The translations under genes and the position numbers were made by a program. 64,000 bases of DNA from Octopus vulgaris (Eukaryota), in assembly GCA_951406725.2 (NCBI GenBank), contig OX597820.1, positions 95,728,001-95,792,000 of the forward strand. The letters run 5' to 3'. Below the pieces are notes generated by a model. It ran no database searches, was not told the origin of the DNA, and was given only the letters and a program-made list of their open reading frames with translations. Of this stretch, positions 6,580-37,379 are shown piece by piece (within the stretch, counting starts at the first letter, position 1; each line of letters begins with the position of its first letter).

Positions 6580-9500
6580 AGGCCATGTCTAACTTAATAG
6601 CACCACCTGGTGAAGTCTTTCAAGTCACAATTTGGGCACTATGGCCCACTCAAGTAGAGAGTTATTGTTTACAGAGACCATATCCGGGTGTAGGGGGTTT
6701 ATCCGGGATTTCTTGAAGGAATCTGTCCAAAGACTTCTTGAACCCTATAGGGTCAGTTTCTGTTTTAATGTGTTTTGGTGTAATGTTAAAGAGAGCGGGG
6801 CCAATTGAGGTGAAATAATTGTGCCGTATTGTTGTTATGAGATGAGAGTGCGATTTTTGTTTTGGGCGGATGGCACGGGGCCCAAGCCTTGGATGTACCT
6901 TAAAGGTGATGCCAACATCATTTGGGCAATGCTGATGGAATATTTTCCACATCATGCACATGATGTAGCGCTCACGACGACGTTGGAGAGAATAGAGTTT
7001 TAGCTTTTCTAGTCGCCCCCAATAGTCGAGGCCTGTCATGCCATCTATCTTTTTTGTGATTGCCCTTTGAGGTGCTTCAACTTTTATGATACCTTGTATT
7101 GTGTGGGGAGACCACAGTGGACAACAGTATTCAAGGTGGAGTCGGGCAAAAGTGGAGAAGAGAATGATAATGGTGTGTATATCTCTCGACTGGAAAGTTC
7201 TGAGAATCCAGGAACACATTCTGCGGGCCATGTCAACTTTGGTGTTTATATGAGTGGCCCAGCTTATGTTGTTGTCCACAATTACTCCCAAGTCTCTGAT
7301 GTTGTTGGACGCCGCGAGAGTTTCACCTGAAGGAAGGGAATATGGGAGTTTCAGGGCATCCTCTTTTCCAAAGTGGATTAGCTCAAATTTATCCTCGTTC
7401 AGCAGCATATTGTTTTTTTCTGCCCATTGGATAACAGCCAGTAGATATGACTGAAGGCATGTCCGGTCACTCGCCTCATTTATGACCTTCTGTAGCTTGG
7501 AGTCATCTGCAAAGATTTTTATGTTGCTGTGCTTGATGATGTCATTAATGTCATTAATGTAAATGATGAAAAGAAGTGGGCCCAGCACAGTGCCTTGCGG
7601 AACGCCACTACTGACTTTGGCTGGGCTTGATTTTACCCCTTCAACTACAACATGTTGAGATCTGTCTGTCAGGAAACACTTGATCCATTTCAGTAACTTT
7701 CCAGAGACACCAATGTTGGATAGTTTTTTCAATAGGATCTTGTGATCGACCCTGTCGAAGGCCTTACTGAAATCAAGGTAGATGACATCGGTGTTGGAGC
7801 CCTCTCCCAAAGCTCTCAAAATGTCCTCAAAGTGATGCAGGAGCTGCGTTAGGCAGTCCCTTCCATTACGGAACCCATGTTGGTTGGAGATCAGCCGTCT
7901 GTTGCTTTCCAGAAATTGGGTTATTCGAGATCTCACCACCCTCTCAAATACCTTGATGATATGAGAGGTGAGTGAGATCGGACGGTAATTCACTGCAAGG
8001 GACTTGTTTCCCTTTTTGAAAACTGGGACAACAGACTGGGACAGAAGGTTTTTTGGAATATAGCCAGCATCCAGTGAGTTTCTCCACAGATTAGCAAGGG
8101 GAGATGCAAGTTGGTGTCGACACACCTTCAGGACACAAGCAGGGAACCTATCGGGGCCTACTGCTGAATTGTGTTTTATTTCGTTTATCGCCGCTAAGAC
8201 ATCAGGGGCACTAAACGTTATGTCCGATATATTGTGTTGGGGGTTGACATCACTGATACAGCCCAGATCGGCCATATCAGGATTGCTGAAAACAGAGCAG
8301 TATTGTTTCTGCAGTATCTCGACCATGGATTTGGCATTATCTTGGAGAGTGCCAGTTTCGTCAATTAGAGGGCCTACAGTGGAGACAGTGACCCTGCGTT
8401 TCCTCGCAAATGAAAAGAACACTTTGGGGTTGAGTTTGATTTTTTCAATGGCCCACTTCTCCTCAGCTGATCTTTGGTTATTGATGAGGGTCTTCATGCA
8501 TTGTTGGAGGTTATATTTTTTGGATTCAAGCAGTGCGATAGCCGTCGAATGTATGTGTTGCTGTTGGCAGTACTTTAGTTTGTTAATTTTTTTGTTTGTT
8601 CTTTTTATTTTTCTGATAATGGTTTTTCTGTTTTGGGGGATTCTGCACTTTTTGTTCACAGGTCTTGGTGGGGAGTGTTTTGCACATATGTCTGTGACGG
8701 TGTCTACAAAGATCTGCCAAGATGTTTTATGGTTGGTGGAGATGTGTGTATGTGTAAAGGACCAGTCAACATGTGATAGCTCGTTCCTGATTGCATCCCA
8801 GTTGGCATTATGGAGATCCATGTTGTCAAATGTGTGGGCTGGAGGAAGGTCACTAGGATCAGCTTTCGGCTGGTGGAATTTCATGTTACAGAGAACCATG
8901 TCATGGTTTGAAAGAAGGGTTTTTTCCACTGTAACGTTATGTATAGTGTTAGTGTGGTTACTAAACACTAGGTCCAAAATGTTCTGATGTCTTGTTGGTG
9001 CAAGGACAAGTTGGGACAAGAAAAACTCATTCGTAAAGTCGAAAAGTGACTCTGCTGCTTCTTTGTCAGCGGTTGAGGCGGGAGTGCTTGGTTTCAAACA
9101 GTTTGTAGTCCAGTCAACACAGGGTAGATTGAAGTCTCCCATCATGAGTATGTTGCTAGAATGGCACTGTTGAATAAAGCACTTAATGCTGTTGAGGCAT
9201 TCTTTAAAGCACAGTATGGGTGTTTGGGGCGGCCAATAGAGCCCAATTACTGTCAGGTCATTGGCTTTGTTGTGCACGGTGACTGATTCACAGTAGCCGT
9301 TGGAGAATATACTATTTCTATCTGCCGTAAATGAATCATGCAGGAAAATGGCAGTTCCACCCTTCCTCCTGCCGATACGATCCGCGCGGATGGTTGTGAA
9401 ATTCTTCACTCTCACTTCGGCTTCCAAGTGGGAGTTGTCAAGGTGGGTCTCAGTGAGAATGAAGAAAGGGATGTGGTGTGAATGGTTACCAACCCAGTCT

Positions 9501-9875
9501 TCAATGAATTGAACCTTCCATTTTTGTGCATTGATGGAAGGGCTGACACCTTGTGCATTGAGTAGGAATGTGGAGGTTAGTGTAGTGGCTGGTTTTGACT
9601 GTTGCAGGGGGCTTGGATTTTTTGTGTGTGTTAGTGGCAGCAATGAGGGGAATTGGTGCACTGGGGTAATAGCATAGGATGGTGTTGAGTGATGGCTAGA
9701 ATGTTTTTGTGTATCTCTTTTGCCATGTTCAACATGGCTAAAAAAGAATTTTCCTGCTTAGGGAGCAGTTTTTGGCTGGAGGTGTGGTTGAACTGTTGGA
9801 TAGGGTTGTAGTTTCCACTTTTGTTGTTGTTGTTTTTGTGTCTTCCTGAAAAGACTGGACCAGCATTACTGCAGC
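6580..9875 (-). mobile_element. CR1-clade LINE copy 1 (5'-truncated, 3' tail missing)
   Basis: Near-identical to the copies at 39990-43925 and 46950-50505. Embedded in (TA)n on both sides. Confidence 0.95.
6662..9661 (-). CDS. LINE ORF2: APE endonuclease + reverse transcriptase (1-nt insertion alters the last residues)
   Basis: Motifs LTETHL, GDFN, LDLVF, NHD; [45 protein letters not shown]-terminus is GYGLCKQ versus GYVSVNN... in copy 3. No AUG before the APE domain. Confidence 0.9.
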
Positions 9876-12779: not shown

Positions 12780-13258
12780 TATATAAGTGTTAGGTGTGGT
12801 GTACAGAAATTGAATAATGAGAAAAAAGGTCGCCAGGATTTTGTAATAAATATTTATTTCTCCATTATTATTACCACTTTCGTTCGTTTTTAGAACTTGT
12901 CAAATAGAATTTTGCGAATTTACAAACAGCTTGTTCATTTATATAAAACATTGGCGGAGGCGGATGTGTTTAGAAGAAGAGAACATTGTTTTTGTCTTTT
13001 TTGGGTGAGATTCCATGACAATAGAGATAGATAGAAATATAGGTAGATAGATAAATAGATCGATAGATAGATATAGATAGACAGATAGATAGGTAGAGAG
13101 AGAGAAAGGGGATCCCCCTTCCTTTTCACCATTCATTTATTTCTTTAACCTTTTACCATATTATATATATATATATATATAGAACAAGTAGAAAGATAAA
13201 TGTTTAATCAACGCGTAGATTCTGAACAGTACATATATAAGGATAAAATCCTTTATAT

Positions 13259-13341
<83 letters not shown>

Positions 13342-13444
13342 GTATCTACGCGTTGATTAAAAATTTATCATTCTACTTGTTCTGCAATACATTTCAACCC
13401 TTGGAAAACAAACTTGTTTGTTTAAATCGGACGTTTTATATATA

Positions 13445-14068
13445 TATACCAAATACCAACAGAACGGAACAACCACCAAGAAATCCTACCACACTCTACA
13501 CCAGAAAAGTACACCTAAAACACACCCCACACTACCTACACCAACCCCAAAACACCTACAGAGGCCCACCACACCAGTTCGAAAATAGACATACCAACAG
13601 AGCAGAACAACCACCAAGAAATCCAAACACACTCTACACCAGAAAAATGCATTTAAAACGCACCCCACACTACCTACACCAACCCCAAACACTTATAGGG
13701 TCCCACCACACCATTCCACGAACCTAAGAGCCACAACATACAATACTATAAAATACAACCCACATAACCAAACCAAAACGCTACTACCAAACATCCACCC
13801 CAGGAACCAACCATACAACCATAACAAACAACAAATGCACTACGGAGGAAACAACTACCAACACAATATACCTGATGAACTAAGACGGAACACTAGGTTC
13901 AACAACAGACTCCAGAACAGAGCACCACAAACTCACTCTGACAATTATAACAACATGAGACAGATAAATAATAGCTTTGAACATAACTACACCAACCATT
14001 TTTTAGACCTTACACACAGGAACACGGACACACGATGGCAAAGGACAAACAAAAGAAACCTCAGGTAA
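13445..14068 (+). CDS. PLE upstream ORF remnant (Pro/His/Asn/Tyr-rich, ~138-bp internal tandem duplication, one 1-nt frameshift near 13688)
   Basis: ORFs 13200-13727 and 13835-14068 join into one frame if one A is restored in the second repeat unit. It overlaps the RT ORF, which lies in the -1 frame. Confidence 0.5.
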
Positions 14069-16332
14069 TTAAGATAATCAATCTCTCAAACAAAGAACTT
14101 ACACCTAACGAAATAAGCATACTCTCCAAAGGACTTAAATTTACACCCACCCCACAACGTTCTAATTACTATGAAATGAAAGATGATATTTCGGAATTTT
14201 GCAGAAAACTAAGACTCACCGAGGCATTTCAAGACAAACAAATAGAGGAGGACTCAATAGCTAGAAACAAGAGCAATTACACCCCCACCAAGGGAAAGAA
14301 TAAAGCCCTAGACCGCTATTGTGACTACATAACTAATTTCCCGTTTCAATTCATCAAGAAACAAAAACACAGCCCTAACTTCAACAAAAGAGAATGGAAC
14401 GACCTCATCAAACTAAGAGAAGACAAAACAATAACAATTAAGGAGGCAGATAAGGGCAACGCGATAGTAATAATGAATACAAACGATTATAAAAATTTAG
14501 TGCTATCCCTATTAAGAGATGAAACGTATTATGAAAGGGCCCAACAGTATAACCAGCAAAAAATAATGCATAACCTTAGGACATTAATCAACACATACCA
14601 AGAAGGACTCACGAACAAGGAGTATGAATACATCACTAACTTCAAATGCAAATCGAGTTTGTTCTATGGTATCCCTAAGGTACACAAAAGCCAAACCATC
14701 GGAGAAACGTGCAAAACATCCACCGACACACTCATCAAAATCCCTTCACCAAATGATCTTAAACTAAGACCGATAATAGCAGGGCCAGCATGTGAAACTC
14801 ACCGCCTCAGCAATTTCTTAGACACACTTCTTAAACCTTTCCTAAAACACATCAAAAGCTACGTAAGAGACGATATAGATATGCTCAACCACCTCCCTAA
14901 AACAGTCAATGAGAAAACCCTTCTAGTATCATTCGACGTAGTTAATCTTTATTCTAACATCCCTCACAACCTGGGAATAGAAGCGATCACCTTCTGGCTG
15001 AATAACTACCCCTTTGAACTCCCAACTCGCATAAACAAAGACCTTATAATAGAAGGACTTAGATTCATTTTAGAGAACAATTATTTTATTTTTGACAATG
15101 ATTTCTACAGGCAAAGATCGGGAACAGCGATGGGCACGCGTACTGCACCATCTTTTGCCAACCTAGTGATGGGATACCTCGAGAAAATACTATACCGGAT
15201 AACACTCGAGAAATATGGAAACACCTTCGCCACCTATATCCATAACAACTGGAAAAGATACCTCGATGACTGTTTCATCATCTGGGACAAAGGTATAGAG
15301 AAACTTGAGGAATTTAAAATACTATTAAATGGAATAAATGACAATATACAATTCACGATGGACCACAACGAAAAAGAATTACAATTTTTAGACATCCTCA
15401 TTAAGAAAACCGGCAACAAAATAGAGACAGATATCTACTATAAACCGACAGACTCTAAACAGTACCTACCCTTTGATTCATGCCACCCACGACACACTAG
15501 AATGAATGTCCCTTTTTGTTTAGCTAGAAGGATTTGCACCATAATATCAGACACAAACACCCGACACACACGTCTCCAGGAACTTAGAACCACACTCACA
15601 AATAGAAACTATCCACAGCCCCTAATAGACAGTGCAATCCAACGGGTACTTAAATTAAGTATAGAAGACCTGAGACAAACAAAACCAAAAAAGAAAGAAC
15701 AATTAAAAACCCTTCCCTACATCTCTACACACAACCCACTCAACAATGAGGCCTTCAACACCATACTACAAAGCACAGCCCTACTAAAGGGAGACCCAAA
15801 GATGAACCGGATCCTCGAAACACACACCATCATTAAAAGTAAACGGCAACCAAAATCCTTGAAAAGGATTTTAACCCAAGCTACACTGCACTCAACATCA
15901 ACCACAAAACCAGCAGTTAGAAAATGTGGAAGGCCCAACTGCGGAATCTGTGTCATCTTGAAAGAAGGATCAGAATTTATACTGGAACAAGGCCAGCAGT
16001 TCACCATTAGAACAAACTTCACCTGCGCATCAGAAAACTTAATTTACGTCATAACATGCGCAGGCTGCAATAGGCAGTATATAGGCCATACAAAAAATAG
16101 CTTACGTAACAGGATGGCGGTGCATAAATCACAAATTAGAAACCCTGATTACCGCAAAATACCGGTCAGCGGACACATAGATAGATGTGCTGGAAATGTA
16201 AATCCGAAATTTACAACTAACCCGCTCTATAAATTCAGTGACAACGCAACCTTCACACAACGCCAAAATAAAGAACTATATTTCATAAAAAAATTTAGAC
16301 CAAGTTTAAACACCCTGGGCCAGGAATACTAA
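14035..16332 (+). CDS. PLE reverse transcriptase + GIY-YIG endonuclease (765 aa)
   Basis: Motifs LSKGLKF.P, ADKG, FYGIPKVHK, RPII, FDVVNLYSNI, GTAMG, RYLDD, FLD, CGRPNCGIC and NLIYVITC..C..QYIG.T...R..H. The C-x4-C-x2-C knuckle before GIY-YIG is typical of the Neptune clade. Confidence 0.95.
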   Translation: MAKDKQKKPQVIKIINLSNKELTPNEISILSKGLKFTPTPQRSNYYEMKDDISEFCRKLRLTEAFQDKQIEEDSIARNKSNYTPTKGKNKALDRYCDYITNFPFQFIKKQKHSPNFNKREWNDLIKLREDKTITIKEADKGNAIVIMNTNDYKNLVLSLLRDETYYERAQQYNQQKIMHNLRTLINTYQEGLTNKEYEYITNFKCKSSLFYGIPKVHKSQTIGETCKTSTDTLIKIPSPNDLKLRPIIAGPACETHRLSNFLDTLLKPFLKHIKSYVRDDIDMLNHLPKTVNEKTLLVSFDVVNLYSNIPHNLGIEAITFWLNNYPFELPTRINKDLIIEGLRFILENNYFIFDNDFYRQRSGTAMGTRTAPSFANLVMGYLEKILYRITLEKYGNTFATYIHNNWKRYLDDCFIIWDKGIEKLEEFKILLNGINDNIQFTMDHNEKELQFLDILIKKTGNKIETDIYYKPTDSKQYLPFDSCHPRHTRMNVPFCLARRICTIISDTNTRHTRLQELRTTLTNRNYPQPLIDSAIQRVLKLSIEDLRQTKPKKKEQLKTLPYISTHNPLNNEAFNTILQSTALLKGDPKMNRILETHTIIKSKRQPKSLKRILTQATLHSTSTTKPAVRKCGRPNCGICVILKEGSEFILEQGQQFTIRTNFTCASENLIYVITCAGCNRQYIGHTKNSLRNRMAVHKSQIRNPDYRKIPVSGHIDRCAGNVNPKFTTNPLYKFSDNATFTQRQNKELYFIKKFRPSLNTLGQEY

Positions 16333-16500
16333 AACAAAAGATAAGTCCTCCGAAAAGGAGAAGCAAAATTCCACCACGGCCGCTACCTTAAACAGACACT
16401 CGCTCTGACGGAAATATGCCTTAGTAAAAAAGGAAAAAAATTCTTTCGTGCAAATCTGACCCTGATACATACGATACAGCTAAGGGTCAGACCCGATTCT

Positions 16501-16944
16501 GATTGGTCAACAAGTTGATGACGTCTAGTTCTGCTAGAATGGACAGAATACAAACAGGGGACAGTCATTAGTCAGAATATTGATGACGTCCTTTTCTGCT
16601 TGACTAGTCACCTAACAAGTACAGACAGGGGGCAGATCTAATGTAGCTATAAGTCGTGATTGGGCAGAATCTGGATGACGTCCCGTTCTGCTTGACTAAC
16701 GAAGCGGCTGGTCAAAACAGGAAACAGACAAGAGGCAGTTATAATGCAGCGATTGGTCAAAATGATGATGACGTCCCGTTCTGCTTGACTAAAGCCACCT
16801 AACGAAACGATTGGTCAAAACATTGATGACGTCACGCTACGCTGGACTGACCACCTAACAGGCATTATAAAACCGAGCACTTCACAAGACTCACTAGAAC
16901 CACCCAGCGAACACCCACCATGGGTCATCACAATTGCTTAAGGT
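16501..16944 (+). promoter_or_regulatory. PLE pseudo-LTR promoter: 5x (CCAAT-box + CRE) modules, TATA, Inr, Kozak ATG, 5' splice site
   Basis: GATTGG (once CATTAG) at 16501/16566/16658/16751/16809, each followed 15 nt later by (T/G)GATGACGTC. TATAAAA 16866-72, TCACT 16891-95, CCACCATGG 16915-23, AG|GTAAAA 16941-48. Confidence 0.7.
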
Positions 16945-17193
16945 AAAAATGAATTCCTCGCTCTTTCGGAAACATCAATCTTCTGTATTGACTGCTTTCC
17001 ACCACTTTGATCTGTTTTTTGTATTGAATACGTATCGCCACCGTGGGCCACTGCATCGAACACTTTGAACATATAGCATGAATGAACTTACTTCAAACTA
17101 TATATCAACTATACATGAACTCTAAGATGTCTGACTCCGTTGTGTATTATAAATGAATTTCTTGTGTTTGACGGCATGAGCTGTCTTTTTTTA

Positions 17194-17252
17194 TATATAA
17201 CTTTTTTTGATAAGGTTCATTTCAGGAACTGAAACATGTTATAATGTATATA
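17194..17252 (+). ncRNA. Minimal type-I hammerhead ribozyme candidate (U3:A8 variant)
   Basis: TTGATAA 17207-13, stem II GGTTC/GAACT, GAAA 17231-34, palindromic stem III AACATGTT, GUU triplet. Stem I is imperfect. Confidence 0.55.
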
Positions 17253-17302
17253 TAAAAATTAAAAATTGTATAATATAGCAGCATTTTCGAACTTCATTTT
17301 TT

Positions 17303-17372
<70 letters not shown>

Positions 17373-32040: not shown

Positions 32041-32077
<37 letters not shown>

Positions 32078-32111
32078 AAAGGTTTGAAAATGCAATTTAA
32101 ACGATGTTTAT

Positions 32112-32158
32112 TTACTTAACCGGTTTCACTCTTTGTTAAAAAGATTGTCAAAAGTAAC
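32112..32158 (-). ncRNA. Minimal type-I hammerhead ribozyme candidate (U3:A8 variant)
   Basis: Minus strand: TTACTT-TTGACAA-TCTTTttaacAAAGAgt-GAAA-CCGGTT-AAGTAA. Perfect 6-bp stem I, palindromic stem III AACCGGTT, imperfect base of stem II. Confidence 0.65.
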
Positions 32159-32719
32159 ATTGAATATTATGGGTTCAAAAAAGTTTTTTACATAATTGTC
32201 ACATTGAATATTATGAATTCAAAAATGTTTTTTTATACATAATTGTCACATTACATGTATAAATATAGTATAAAAAAGTTCAATAGTGTGATGAGAATAT
32301 TTGGAAAAATTGGCAGAAAAGAATAAAACAAATATATTATTGGAAATTTGGTTGCGTTAATTATTGGTTGTCGCAAATTGTCACATTACATGTATATATA
32401 TACAGTCTTTGGTAGAAATGACATGTTAAAGACATAAGGAAGTGTAATAGTTTGGTGAGAAAGCTTGTAATATTGACAGAGAAAATTAAAATGGATATTT
32501 TAGACATCTCAGAATATTTTGAATCGAAGGCGAGAATTTGTTTTTACTGACCTGTTTGTTTTAGCAGAAAAGTTGAATTGAGAGAAAAAAAAGATATGTA
32601 CCCAATTTGGTTTATACTTCCCCTTCAAGCATCAGTGACTTTGGGGTTATTGGGAGGTGAGTATGCGGGTGTGAATAGATGTGTCCGTGTGCCTGCTGGT
32701 CAGACAGCGTCTGTTTGTC

Positions 32720-32920
32720 ACACACATATATACACACACACACACAACAACAATACACACACACACATAGTATACACACACACACCACATACACACAACA
32801 CACACACACACAGAATACACACACACACAACGCACCCACATATATAATATATACACACAGCACACAAATATAACATGTATTTATATATAATATACACACA
32901 TATATAAAACATACACACAC

Positions 32921-32957
<37 letters not shown>

Positions 32958-33754
32958 CACACGCACACATATATACATAATATAAATATCACACAAATAC
33001 ACCTAGCATATATATACACATACAATACACATACACAGCATGTATATAATACACATACACAATATATGCATGCAATATACATACGCAATACATACATATA
33101 ATATATATATATATAGACAATGCATATACATATATACATATATACATATAAATAGTGTTTACATACACATACATAGATATACCACATATACACACAATAT
33201 ACATACATACAATGCATACACATACACGTACGCATACATATAAAATATATAGACACACACACACATAACATACATACACAATGCATACATATATATACAC
33301 GCAACGTATATACATGTATTCATGTATATATAGCACACACTTACAATATACATATATACAATGCACACATACACACATATATACACTTAATTGTACACAT
33401 ACATATACAATACACATACATACAATATACATATACACAATGCGCATGCAAATAATGCACATGTTTATACACCCATATACATGAAAATATATATACACAC
33501 ACACACATACACACACACATATACATATATACACATATATATATATATATACACATATACATACATACATACATGCACATACATATATTTTTTCACACAC
33601 ATACACACACATATATATATAAAATTCACACACACACCCACACACACAAAATACAAACCTATAGTGTACACACTCAAATATATCTCTACATACCGCACAC
33701 ACACACAAACAATGTACTCACATATACACACATACCATGCATATACACACACAG

Positions 33755-33786
<32 letters not shown>

Positions 33787-34060
33787 AACAAATACACATG
33801 TAAATACATACACTCGTACACAATGCTCACACACACACACACATACACACACACACGCACACAGTGCACACACACACACATATATACACACGTGCACACA
33901 CACACACAACGCGCGCACACACACACACATACACACACGCACACAGTGCACACACACACACACACATAAACACACGCGCACACACACACACACACACAAC
34001 GTGCACACTCACACACACACACACAACACTCACACACATACATAACCTACATATATATAA
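32720..34060. repeat. Complex (CA)/(TA) low-complexity tract
   Basis: Read directly. Confidence 0.95.
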
Positions 34061-34643
34061 TGCATGCGTGTGCGTGCCACGTATGTGTGCGGTCAATGCC
34101 CGCTAGTGTGTCCTATGCGTGCCGATGCGCGCATGTGCCCACCCGCACGATATGCTGTGAGTGTGCGCGTGCCCCTGTGTGCCTGCTCTGGATGTGTGCC
34201 CAGGGGGTATGTTAGAGTATGTTTAGTTGTGGTCTGTATTTTTGAATAAGATTACTTTCCTTATTTATTCGTGTTTGGTCTGTGGTGTTGTCCGAGCATT
34301 GGTATAGTGGGAAGACTAAGAATTTGGGGGACTTATTGTGTGCACAAAGGTCTAAGTGTCCACTTAGTGGTATCTGTCTTGTGGAGGGGTCCCTCAGTTG
34401 TTGTCGGTGAACTGTCATTCTTTCTCTGAGGGTAAGGCTCGTTTGCCCTATGTAGTCTTCGTGGCATCCTTCACACCTTATGACGTAGAGTAAATTTTTT
34501 GATGCGCACGTGAAATTATTTTTTATGATGAATGTGTGTCCCGAGTGGAACTTGTACGACGATCCCTCAATGAGGTGGATGCAGGTCTTGCAATTGGGGC
34601 GACCACATTTTTTGATGGGCGACCACATTTTTTGATATATATT

Positions 34644-34675
<32 letters not shown>

Positions 34676-35780
34676 TGTATTATGTAAGTATGTATGTCCA
34701 AATAGTTGAAGCTCCGATACATAGTAAAAAATTGAAAATTCCCATTCGTGCAAGGAATCAGCGTGTATTCGATAAAAGAATGAATGACAGCCTTTTACAA
34801 ATCAATAAACGCATTCACAGTAGGCACTAAGCATCAGATGCGCCGGTGTCATTTCCATAACATTTATGCTTCTTATGAGGTCGGCAGCTATGCAAAACAG
34901 ATGAACATATTCTGGAAAAAAAAAGACTAAGCATTCGGAGAACATGAATACAGAGAAAACATACCCTCTATATATTTTCATTACACCTGACTGTTATTCC
35001 TGGCATGTTGTCATTGATCCCCAGTAAAAGAGAATTATTGATAGAAACTATACAGTATCGATCAAATTGTAAACCCAAAAGCTTTCACAAAAAGATCATC
35101 TATTTTATTGTGTGCAATTATAACTGGATGCCATTTTTTTCCATCTCAGTACCATTGATGTAGATGACAAGAAATAAAAACAAATAGCTTTCCATTGTGT
35201 TACCAGAAAGGAAACAGCATCATAAAAGGATATTTGTAGAGTGATAGAAAATATTGATTTTTTTAATAGGCACAAAGCCTGTTGTCGTGAGAAAGTAATC
35301 ACTGGCGGCTGGATTACTCCAGGATACTAATAGGACTTATTTTATTGACCCGGGATAAATGAGTGAGTAATTGGAACTCAGATATGGAGAGCCTACAACA
35401 AAATGTTGAAACAAATATAGCTCAGTGCTCTTTTGTTAATAAAATGCATTGTTCTTGAACATATGCTTTCGACAAAATAGGTTGCTAGCATTTGAAGTTC
35501 TGTCTTCTTAGATGTATTCATCACTGTGCAACAATTACAAAGCTTTCAGTTAAGTGCTCATGTGTCACTAAAATAAGAACAAATGATAAACACATGTAGT
35601 TCATGCTTAATTCTTGGAATTGTGAAATACTAAAAAGCTGAATGGAATTCAAAAGACAAGACATAATATCTCTATCAATATGGTGACATTTGTGAAAATA
35701 CGTTTCGGGGAACAGTAAAAGAAGAATAGTTTCTGTGATTTGTTTCGTTCCAAAGGATTTTTCTGAACTCAAGAAGGAAG

Positions 35781-36079: not shown

Positions 36080-36860
36080 AAGCAAAATATTTGTAAAATC
36101 TCAAGAGATAAAGTAGTTACTATACTAAACAGTAAAGTCAGTTGCCACATCAAATTGGCTGTTGAACGTTACTACTAGTTTAACCCCAGGCAGATTCTCC
36201 ACCAGCTGGTTATCGGCGTGATACTCTGCACACTTTATATCAAATAGATTGTCAGCAGGGGGGACGTACCCCTAGCATCCTCTAACAGCTAACTGGATAG
36301 CGAGACTAACAATATATCGTAAACACAGTGATCATCATTCACCGACCCGTAACAAGCAAAATAGCTAGTTGTAAAATCTCAGGAAGAGATAAAGTAGTAA
36401 CTATACTAAATAGTAGAATGTCGCACCGATAATCAGCTAGCGGAGAAGCTGGTTGGGATTAAACTAGTAGTAACTTTCAACAGCCACTTTGATGTAGCGA
36501 CTGACTTTAGTGTATAGTATAGTTATCATTCTATGTCTTCGTGAGATTTTACGTTGAAAATCAGTGATTGATGGACACTTTGTTTACAATATGTTGTTAG
36601 CAGTAGCGGACTCTTACTATCGCTCTGGTATGTAGGTACTCGCGGCTGAGGATGAGCCAAACAGCACGAAACTGAGTCAGTCTCGCAGTCTTGTTAGCTG
36701 CTCGAGGATGATAGATGTCCGCTCTCCCTGCTGGCAATGTATTGTATATAAAGGGTGCAGAGAGTCACTCTGATAACCAGGTGGCGGAGAATCTGCCTGG
36801 GGTTAAACTAGTACTAACATTCATCAGCCAATTTGATGTAGTGAATGACTTTAATGTATG
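36080..36860. mobile_element. Retrozyme-like / PLE-pLTR-like non-coding element: two slightly-longer-than-unit arrays in inverted orientation
   Basis: The + array 36420-36860 has period 344 (GATAA.CAG...GCGGAGAA at 36428 and 36772). The - array 36080-36415 has period ~278 and lacks the 80-nt hammerhead segment. Confidence 0.7.
36639..36688 (+). ncRNA. Type-I hammerhead ribozyme candidate
   Basis: Stem I CT(C)GCGG/TCGCAG, CTGAGGA 36646-52, degenerate stem II, GAAA 36668-71, palindromic stem III ACTGA-G-TCAGT, GUC at 36680-82. Confidence 0.65.
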
Positions 36861-36935: not shown

Positions 36936-37379
36936 TATATTAGCAGAAAGACCTTTTTCTGCTTCTTTAACTTGGTGTCTGCGTGTTTATATTACAGAGA
37001 CAGTGTGTGAAAGAGAAACAGAGAGAGAGAAAGAGAGAGAGAGGGAGAGAGAAGGAGGGGGGCAGATAACATTACAAACAATGAATGAAATAAAAATGAT
37101 ATGTAAAAATCGCATAAATAAAAGCTCGTTAAAACTGTCTTGTAACGAATATTTAAATTTGTGAACTTGAAATAATAAATAATATTAAAAGGTCGTTCAA
37201 AAAGGGAATTTTCATGAAAACTCCAATTTACAGAAAATCTCGCTTGCTTAGGAAATATTTCTTTCAGTAATTTATCGTAGTTGCGATATATCTGTAATTT
37301 AAGCAAACTTTAGGGTATAGCAGCAGTCGCATAGTTATTATTGTAAAGTTTATAGCGTTCCAAACAGTTATACTAAGAA

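What the first reader, a model, noticed from the sequence alone, without database searches (positions are those of the whole stretch)
17194..17252. Two different Neptune PLE families both end in a hammerhead with the compensatory U3:A8 core
Seen: TTGATAA...GAAACATGTT at 17207-17240 (+) and TTGACAA...GAAACCGGTT at 32118-32151 (-). Each lies ~50 nt from the element's 3' end, with an 8-nt palindromic stem III and a GUU triplet, but unrelated stem sequences. Known: C3 and G8 form a Watson-Crick pair in the active hammerhead, and minimal PLE hammerheads with palindromic stem III act as dimers. Inference: the same double change (C3U+G8A) in two diverged families is covariation rather than decay. CUGANGA-based searches would miss these ribozymes.
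Basis: partly seen in the sequence, partly recalled or inferred. Interest (0 to 1): 0.72.

Follow-up and report, generated by a model that had tools for sequence, protein, structure and literature searches.

The report
Known U3:A8 hammerheads in Penelope retrotransposons
Two related jumping-gene families each end in a small hammerhead-shaped RNA, predicted but not shown to cut itself, whose U-A core pair is already published for such elements and was likely inherited once from a shared ancestor, so the finding is real but largely ordinary.

Summary
Both motifs are real. They are minimal type I hammerhead folds with U3:A8 at 17207-17240 (+) and 32151-32118 (-), near the 3' ends of two Penelope-like elements (PLEs) with Neptune-type linkers. 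U3:A8 is the family state, not decay: 72 of 73 family A copies found by their downstream tail carry it. Genome-wide, paired cores exceed controls far more than mismatched ones.

The proteins are 56% identical and sit in one supported clade whose 10 scored rows are all U3:A8, so the two sites are likely one inherited change.

U3-A8 is published for Schistosoma PLEs (PMC4209133) and other natural hammerheads (PMC3088659). This scan also noted it before on other DNA, including this genome.

What this genome adds: U3:A8 matches outnumber C3:G8 about 3.6-fold; one repeat family mixes U3·G8 and U3:A8; and a G3:C8 family, also seen earlier by the scan, has a copy at 60434. Cleavage is untested, and the stems are weak.

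The parts
17194..17254 (+). Family A minimal type I hammerhead motif with flanking stem I; core 17207-17240, U3:A8; predicted cut between 17240 and 17241
   Evidence: Sequence; scans; 72 of 73 tail-selected copies that cover the core are U3:A8
13987..16332 (+). Family A PLE ORF, 781 aa stop to stop: RT (YLDD), CX4CxxC linker, C-terminal GIY-YIG
   Evidence: Pfam RVT_1 and GIY-YIG; linker spacing
13339..17305 (+). Family A element copy; likely 5'-truncated, with a short inverted piece at about 13181-13227 and (TA)n at both ends; one hammerhead only
   Evidence: Sequence; 3' ends of other copies
16500..16910 (+). Promoter-like stretch in the 3' repeat: 4 ATTGG, 5 TGACGTC, TATAAA at 16866; 9 of 90 copies start at 16896-16908 (likely transcription start)
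   Evidence: promoter role inferred
32112..32157 (-). Family B minimal type I hammerhead motif; core 32151-32118, U3:A8, U.U at the base of stem II; predicted cut between 32118 and 32117
   Evidence: Sequence; 32 of 32 copies in 30 best-matching loci are U3:A8 (similarity-selected)
32067..34618 (-). Family B element copy, 5'-truncated: GIY-YIG end plus long 3' untranslated region
   Evidence: Pfam GIY-YIG in frame 34212-34679; 99% match to longer copies L061-L066, long ORFs in L064 and L066
60428..60475 (+). Third hammerhead motif, outside the finding: G3:C8 core at 60434-60469, extra G after A9, 5-pair stem II, 6-pair stem I; in the 3' end (about 59895-60617) of a PLE with a short Nematis-type linker
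   Evidence: 4,922 near-exact genomic matches; GIY-YIG frame in L209

Best explanation
The two sites are the hammerhead motifs in the 3' repeats of two related Penelope-like retrotransposon families, and their U3:A8 core pair is the family state, likely fixed once in a common ancestor and likely kept because the RNA must still fold, and probably cut slowly, after U17. Shown: motif anatomy, position behind RT plus GIY-YIG frames, family-wide U3:A8, one RT clade, scarcity of mismatched cores. From the literature: the 3:8 contact is a Watson-Crick pair that tolerates U-A; minimal PLE hammerheads cut weakly, as dimers or with the element's protein. Inferred: a transcript from the promoter-like stretch runs through the motif; the 6-pair palindromic helix III is completed by a second copy (tandem or trans) or the fold is stabilised by the RT protein; cutting would trim tandem transcripts. 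The C:G to U:A change likely passed through a U.G wobble, possibly favoured by A+T-rich sequence.
For:: 72 of 73 copies U3:A8, 1 G3.A8, 0 C3:G8, selected on a tail outside the core. (matches vs reversed control): C:G 5,646 vs 1,051; U:A 18,595 vs 2,146; U.G 2,164 vs 1,330; C.A 2,076 vs 1,020; odds ratio of the excess counts about 86 (copies, not events). Sister families keep the core while stems differ. RT trees. In a related group of short repeats U3:A8 needs at least 2 changes, and one family has 80 U3.G8 and 20 U3:A8 among 100 listed of 286. Literature: PMC4209133 (U3-A8 in Cercyon PLEs; low dimer activity), PMC3088659 (natural U3-A8; U10.1-U11.1 tolerated), PMC11167929 (a PLE hammerhead cuts only with the element's protein).
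Against: No cleavage data. Monomer folds are no better than shuffles, and the predicted homodimer folds of A and B were not the active hammerhead dimer. Stem I of A has a U.U mismatch next to the core. Other multi-copy PLE families here carry U4C (L139-L141, L143) or A6U (L162, L165, L175, L180) cores, so core constraint is loose in this genome. 5' ends of copies show no clean peak at the predicted cut: 4 of 90 at 17239-17244, all blurred by flanking TA repeats. In PMC11167929 hammerhead mutants did not impair insertion in vitro.
Confidence: 0.75

Rival explanations
1. A and B each changed C3:G8 to U3:A8 independently.
For: The stems of the two motifs share no sequence. The best trees need 2 changes for the U3:A8 label because of L133 and L140. 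Independent origins are seen in the short-repeat group.
Against: A and B lie in one starred clade with 10 of 10 scored rows U3:A8; the second change concerns L133 and L140, outside that clade; one origin is not rejected, p-AU 0.45.
Confidence: 0.1
2. The motif is kept as a folded RNA signal (protein binding, reverse-transcription landmark) and cuts little or not at all; the 3:8 pair is kept for structure.
For: U4C, A6U, U3.G8 and A-insertion cores occur in multi-copy families. 17 of 90 family A copies begin inside the 41-nt motif against about 2 expected from the 204 nt upstream, spread out and not at the cut. Cleavage was dispensable for insertion in vitro and no reads ended at the cut site in PMC11167929.
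Against: The 3:8 pair forms in the active conformation (PMC3884650 passages), so keeping it points to catalysis. GAAA and NUH are kept across the families seen. The breakpoint excess may be an alignment effect of TA-rich flanks.
Confidence: 0.25
3. The motifs are decayed remnants, and U3 and A8 are two unrelated A+T-biased substitutions carried along by element amplification.
For: Both changes are G+C to A+T transitions in regions of 24-30% G+C. Copy counts are not independent events.
Against: Several families with different stems keep the same core. Mismatched cores show little excess. A G3:C8 family keeps the pair by two transversions.
Confidence: 0.05

Closest known systems
U3-A8 minimal hammerheads of Cercyon PLEs, Schistosoma mansoni (Cervera and De la Pena 2014, PMC4209133; parts 1-2 of 4 of the main text and passages of one supplement read)
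   Same: Type I topology, position in the PLE terminal repeat, U3-A8 core covariation, short or palindromic helix III, many solo copies.
   Different: Host and PLE lineage. Helix III here has a 4-nt palindromic insert, as in their Drosophila, rotifer and shrimp variants. Here U3:A8 matches outnumber C3:G8 about 3.6-fold; there it was about 1,300 against about 2,000.
Natural hammerhead core variants (Perreault et al. 2011, PMC3088659; section 8 and passages read)
   Same: C3-G8 to U3-A8 covariation in nature; U10.1-U11.1 at the base of stem II (as in B); insertions in GAAA; weak palindromic stem III.
   Different: Described there as rare examples; here the state of a whole retroelement lineage.
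Neptune-type C-terminal-endonuclease PLEs (Craig et al. 2021, PMC8557442; introduction, passages and supplement part 54 of 59 read)
   Same: RT then GIY-YIG, CX2-5CxxC linker with long spacing, (TA)n targets, inverted 5'-truncated copies, hammerhead near the 3' end.
   Different: Neptune is paraphyletic in that paper; no named reference sequences were placed in my trees.
Poseidon PLE hammerhead of Anolis (Frangieh et al. 2024, PMC11167929; parts 1-2 of 4 read)
   Same: PLE hammerhead whose 3:8 pair can be swapped with partial rescue (C3G/G8C).
   Different: Canonical C3:G8; shown to cut, only with the element's protein; different PLE clade.
Metazoan non-LTR retrozymes (Cervera and De la Pena 2020, PMC7229834; passages read)
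   Same: Type I hammerheads; axolotl HHR_Amex2 has a U.U mismatch at the base of helix II like B; 357-362-nt tandem hammerhead repeats also occur in this genome.
   Different: Those are non-coding tandem repeats; A and B are protein-coding PLE families.

Membership tests
Type I hammerhead ribozyme | Core N3-UGA-N-N8-A, GAAA and NUH in type I order | tested here: met
Type I hammerhead ribozyme | Watson-Crick pair between positions 3 and 8 | tested here: met
   U3:A8 in 72 of 73 family A copies; paired classes enriched genome-wide
Type I hammerhead ribozyme | Helices I and II close the junction | tested here: inconclusive
   B: stem I 6 of 6 pairs, stem II starts with U.U. A: stem II 5 pairs, stem I interrupted. 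Monomer folds are not better than shuffles
Type I hammerhead ribozyme | Match to an Rfam hammerhead model | tested here: not met
   No hammerhead hit for L016 (A) or L035 (B) among 140 matches at E up to 10; the canonical-core repeat L187 was missed too, so the miss is not specific to U3:A8 and Rfam is a weak test for these minimal motifs
Type I hammerhead ribozyme | Site-specific self-cleavage after H17 | not testable with these tools
   Needs a bench assay; the copy-start proxy was inconclusive
Minimal PLE hammerheads acting as dimers | Short palindromic helix III | tested here: met
   6-nt palindromes; self-duplex energy -4.6 (A) and -8.3 (B) kcal/mol
Penelope-like elements with C-terminal endonuclease | RT followed by GIY-YIG with the two cysteines between GIY and YIG; GxKF and DKG motifs | tested here: met
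Penelope-like elements with C-terminal endonuclease | Tandem or inverted terminal repeats, 30-40-nt tail, (TA)n targets | tested here: met
   Hammerheads on both strands in 7 of 8 family B loci and two on one strand in L066; tails and TA flanks
Neptune clade | CX2-5CxxC linker with long spacing before GIY (short in Nematis) | tested here: met
   24 residues in A and B, compared by eye with Fig. S2 of PMC8557442
Neptune clade | Placement with named Neptune elements in an RT tree | not tested
   No named reference proteins were available from the tools; the trees used this genome's elements and unnamed homologs

The most novel reading that the evidence does not exclude
In this genome the hammerhead 3:8 pair is a freely exchanged position. 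U3:A8 is fixed in a whole Neptune-type lineage, G3:C8 in a Nematis-type family of thousands of copies, U3.G8 in a spreading short-repeat family, and A3:U8 perhaps in two old families. Non-canonical cores would then be the majority, hammerhead counts built on CUGANGA would miss most motifs here, and the natural series would test directly whether Penelope-like elements need to cut their own RNA.
Probability: 0.4. Interest if true: 0.55.

Novelty: new member of a known kind. Interest (0 to 1): 0.25.

Why it matters
The U3:A8 variant itself adds a host and a lineage to a published observation. The scale is more useful: U3:A8 matches exceed C3:G8 about 3.6-fold after control subtraction, so canonical descriptors would badly undercount hammerheads in this genome. 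Young families with U:A, C:G, G:C and U.G at the same position are a ready natural series for asking how much catalysis these elements need, which is an open question (PMC8557442, PMC11167929).

Tried and rejected
Rfam scan of the window: no hammerhead among the 150 listed of 278 matches, which were microsatellite noise. Repeat finder: swamped by microsatellites.

Sequencing runs: no RNA holder listed. Contigs laid from 7 different runs cover the motif, but contigs cannot show RNA ends, so they say nothing on cleavage or expression.

Monomer and homodimer folding did not recover the active fold. A MAFFT alignment of seven family motifs was poorly registered and was not used.

A peak of copy starts at the predicted cut: not found.

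Idea that G8 copies of the G3:C8 family carry a compensating C3: rejected, 0 of 4 did.

A3:U8 candidates: 8 of 20 fetched lack stem I and look like the end of another repeat, so they were rejected; the other 12 are diverged with partial stems and are only a lead.

Rows left out of trees: the window's 57 kb element and L146 (too short a match); also L134, L145 and all outside homologs. Core labels of L142 and L164 were taken from near-identical family members, not read directly.

Papers not held: Lunse 2017, Przybilski and Hammann 2007, Hammann 2012, Martick and Scott 2006, Nelson and Uhlenbeck 2008. Measured rates for U3:A8 and any earlier report of natural G3:C8 in them were not seen. Searches listed no cephalopod U3:A8 or natural G3:C8 report. 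Supplement file 1 of PMC4209133 could not be searched and bioRxiv supplements are closed; both may bear on novelty.

Full report
Observation. Both motifs are at the stated places. A window scan with free bases at positions 3 and 8 returned only these two. A looser scan that allows an extra base after A9 returned three, against a shuffle mean of 0.24 (1 of 100 shuffles reached three); the third is a G3:C8 motif at 60434. The 8-nt palindromes include A14 and U17, so the helix III that a dimer could use is 6 pairs. B has a perfect 6-pair stem I and a U.U at the base of stem II. A has a 5-pair stem II and an interrupted stem I. Neither folds better than shuffles as a monomer.

The elements. Site A lies about 65 nt before the end of a PLE copy whose frame 13987-16332 encodes RT and GIY-YIG. 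Site B lies about 45 nt before the end of a 5'-truncated copy (34618-32067) that matches longer copies at 99%, with long frames in L064 and L066. Both proteins have GxKF, DKG, YLDD and a CX4CxxC linker 24 residues before the cysteine ahead of GIY. That is the long Neptune spacing, not the short Nematis one, in Fig. S2 of PMC8557442 (compared by eye). Both families are young and multi-copy: at least 40 near-identical matches each, and 240 exact matches to a 31-nt family A tail.

Is U3:A8 the family state? Yes. In similarity-selected loci, 34 of 34 A motifs and 32 of 32 B motifs had it. To remove that bias I took 90 of the 240 copies found by the downstream tail: 73 cover the core, 72 are U3:A8, one is G3.A8 and none is C3:G8. 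Genome-wide, with one pattern and a reversed control: C:G 5,646 vs 1,051, U:A 18,595 vs 2,146, U.G 2,164 vs 1,330, C.A 2,076 vs 1,020, A:U 2,300 vs 1,485. The odds ratio of the excess counts is about 86. These are copies, not independent events. In 52 loci chosen by an RT motif, 11 of 12 hammerhead-like hits had a Watson-Crick 3:8 pair (8 U:A, 2 G:C, 1 C:G), against 0.15 hits per shuffled set.

One event or two? Likely one. A and B are 56% identical in protein. RT trees place A, B and four further families in one clade (100/98 with 30 outside homologs; 100/99 with this genome's rows only). Ten of its rows have a scored motif, and all ten are U3:A8. More distant families are C3:G8. One family outside the clade (L131-L133) also reads U3:A8 and is unresolved against a C3:G8 family (L140); holding all 11 U3:A8 rows together is not rejected (p-AU 0.45). 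Independent support comes from elsewhere. A group of homologous short repeats, some in 357-362-nt tandems, has C3:G8, U3:A8 and U3.G8 members, and U3:A8 needs at least two changes on its tree (short alignment, long branches). One such family shows 80 U3.G8 and 20 U3:A8 among 100 listed of 286, with no C3. The direction of that change is not known.

Mechanism. By established hammerhead chemistry the RNA would be cut after U17, and position 8 is held by pairing with position 3 (PMC8495972 and PMC3884650 passages). U-A keeps that pair. Minimal PLE hammerheads cut weakly, as dimers (PMC4209133), and one cut only with the element's protein (PMC11167929). I infer the same here. A promoter-like stretch precedes site A (repeated ATTGG and TGACGTC, TATAAA at 16866), and 9 of 90 copies start at 16896-16908, which likely marks the RNA start. 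Evidence against a strict catalytic need: other multi-copy families carry U4C or A6U cores; copy starts are enriched inside the motif (17 of 90 in 41 nt) but do not peak at the cut; and cleavage was dispensable for insertion in vitro in PMC11167929. The window's A copy has one motif only, so any dimer would need another transcript.

What is known. PMC4209133 reports U3-A8 instead of C3-G8 in S. mansoni Cercyon PLEs and about 1,300 hits from a descriptor with that core; its supplement lists such motifs. PMC3088659 reports natural U3-A8 and a tolerated U10.1-U11.1 start of stem II. Rfam missed both sites, but it also missed a canonical-core repeat. Earlier notes of this scan describe U3:A8 in this and other genomes and the G3:C8 family in this genome. 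I reached both before reading those notes and do not count them as support.

Verdict. The feature is real, it belongs to a known kind, and the variant is published. The residual value is the dominance of non-canonical cores in this genome and the natural series at position 3:8. Interest 0.25.

Noticed in passing
window 60434-60469 (+); L209: Hammerhead motif with a G3:C8 core. 4,922 near-exact matches, 95 of 100 listed with C8; looser pattern 17,230 vs 7,214 control. It belongs to a PLE with a short Nematis-type linker. No natural G3:C8 report was listed; the scan had noted this family before.
   Followed up: partly
L181-L185, L188, L206, L207: Short hammerhead repeat family with U3.G8 in 80 and U3:A8 in 20 of 100 listed copies; U3.G8 occurs in a 357-nt tandem, and the U3:A8 pair in L206 is also 357 nt apart. 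L182 gives a weak Rfam HH9 match, 31.2 bits.
   Followed up: partly
L186, L187: Retrozyme-like tandem arrays: 362 nt x 5.5 with U3:A8 and 359 nt x 5.6 with C3:G8.
   Followed up: partly
L139-L141, L143; L162, L165, L175, L180; L152-L154, L176: Multi-copy PLE families with other core variants: U4C, A6U, and an extra A in GAAA.
   Followed up: no
L219-L223 and L224-L230: Two old, diverged repeat families (about 70% identity) with an A3:U8 core and partial stems; possible fourth Watson-Crick state.
   Followed up: partly
window 57139-59184 (-): 681-aa PLE frame with CxCX5C linker and an RT4 like Hydra-clade elements in Fig. S1 of PMC8557442; no Pfam hit; no hammerhead found by my scans.
   Followed up: partly
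window 37264-38073 (-): Degenerate GIY-YIG fragment of a third Neptune-type family, 54% identical to L164.
   Followed up: no
window about 36645-36680 (+): Degenerate C3:G8 hammerhead-like motif with poor stems.
   Followed up: no
L066 4740-6146 (-); window 13589-14068 (+): Families A and B have an upstream frame that overlaps the start of the RT frame (469 aa in L066, no clear Pfam match); a frameshift or second ORF is possible.
   Followed up: no
window 16896-16908: 9 of 90 family A copies begin here, about 30 nt after TATAAA and a run of CCAAT-like and CRE-like boxes; likely the internal promoter and RNA start.
   Followed up: partly
window 6662-9757 (-), 47283-50414 (+), 40048-43137 (-): Three near-identical (99%) copies of a young non-LTR element with AP endonuclease and RT.
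   Followed up: no
window 51036-51551 (-): Partial DDE transposase (Pfam Transposase_1).
   Followed up: no
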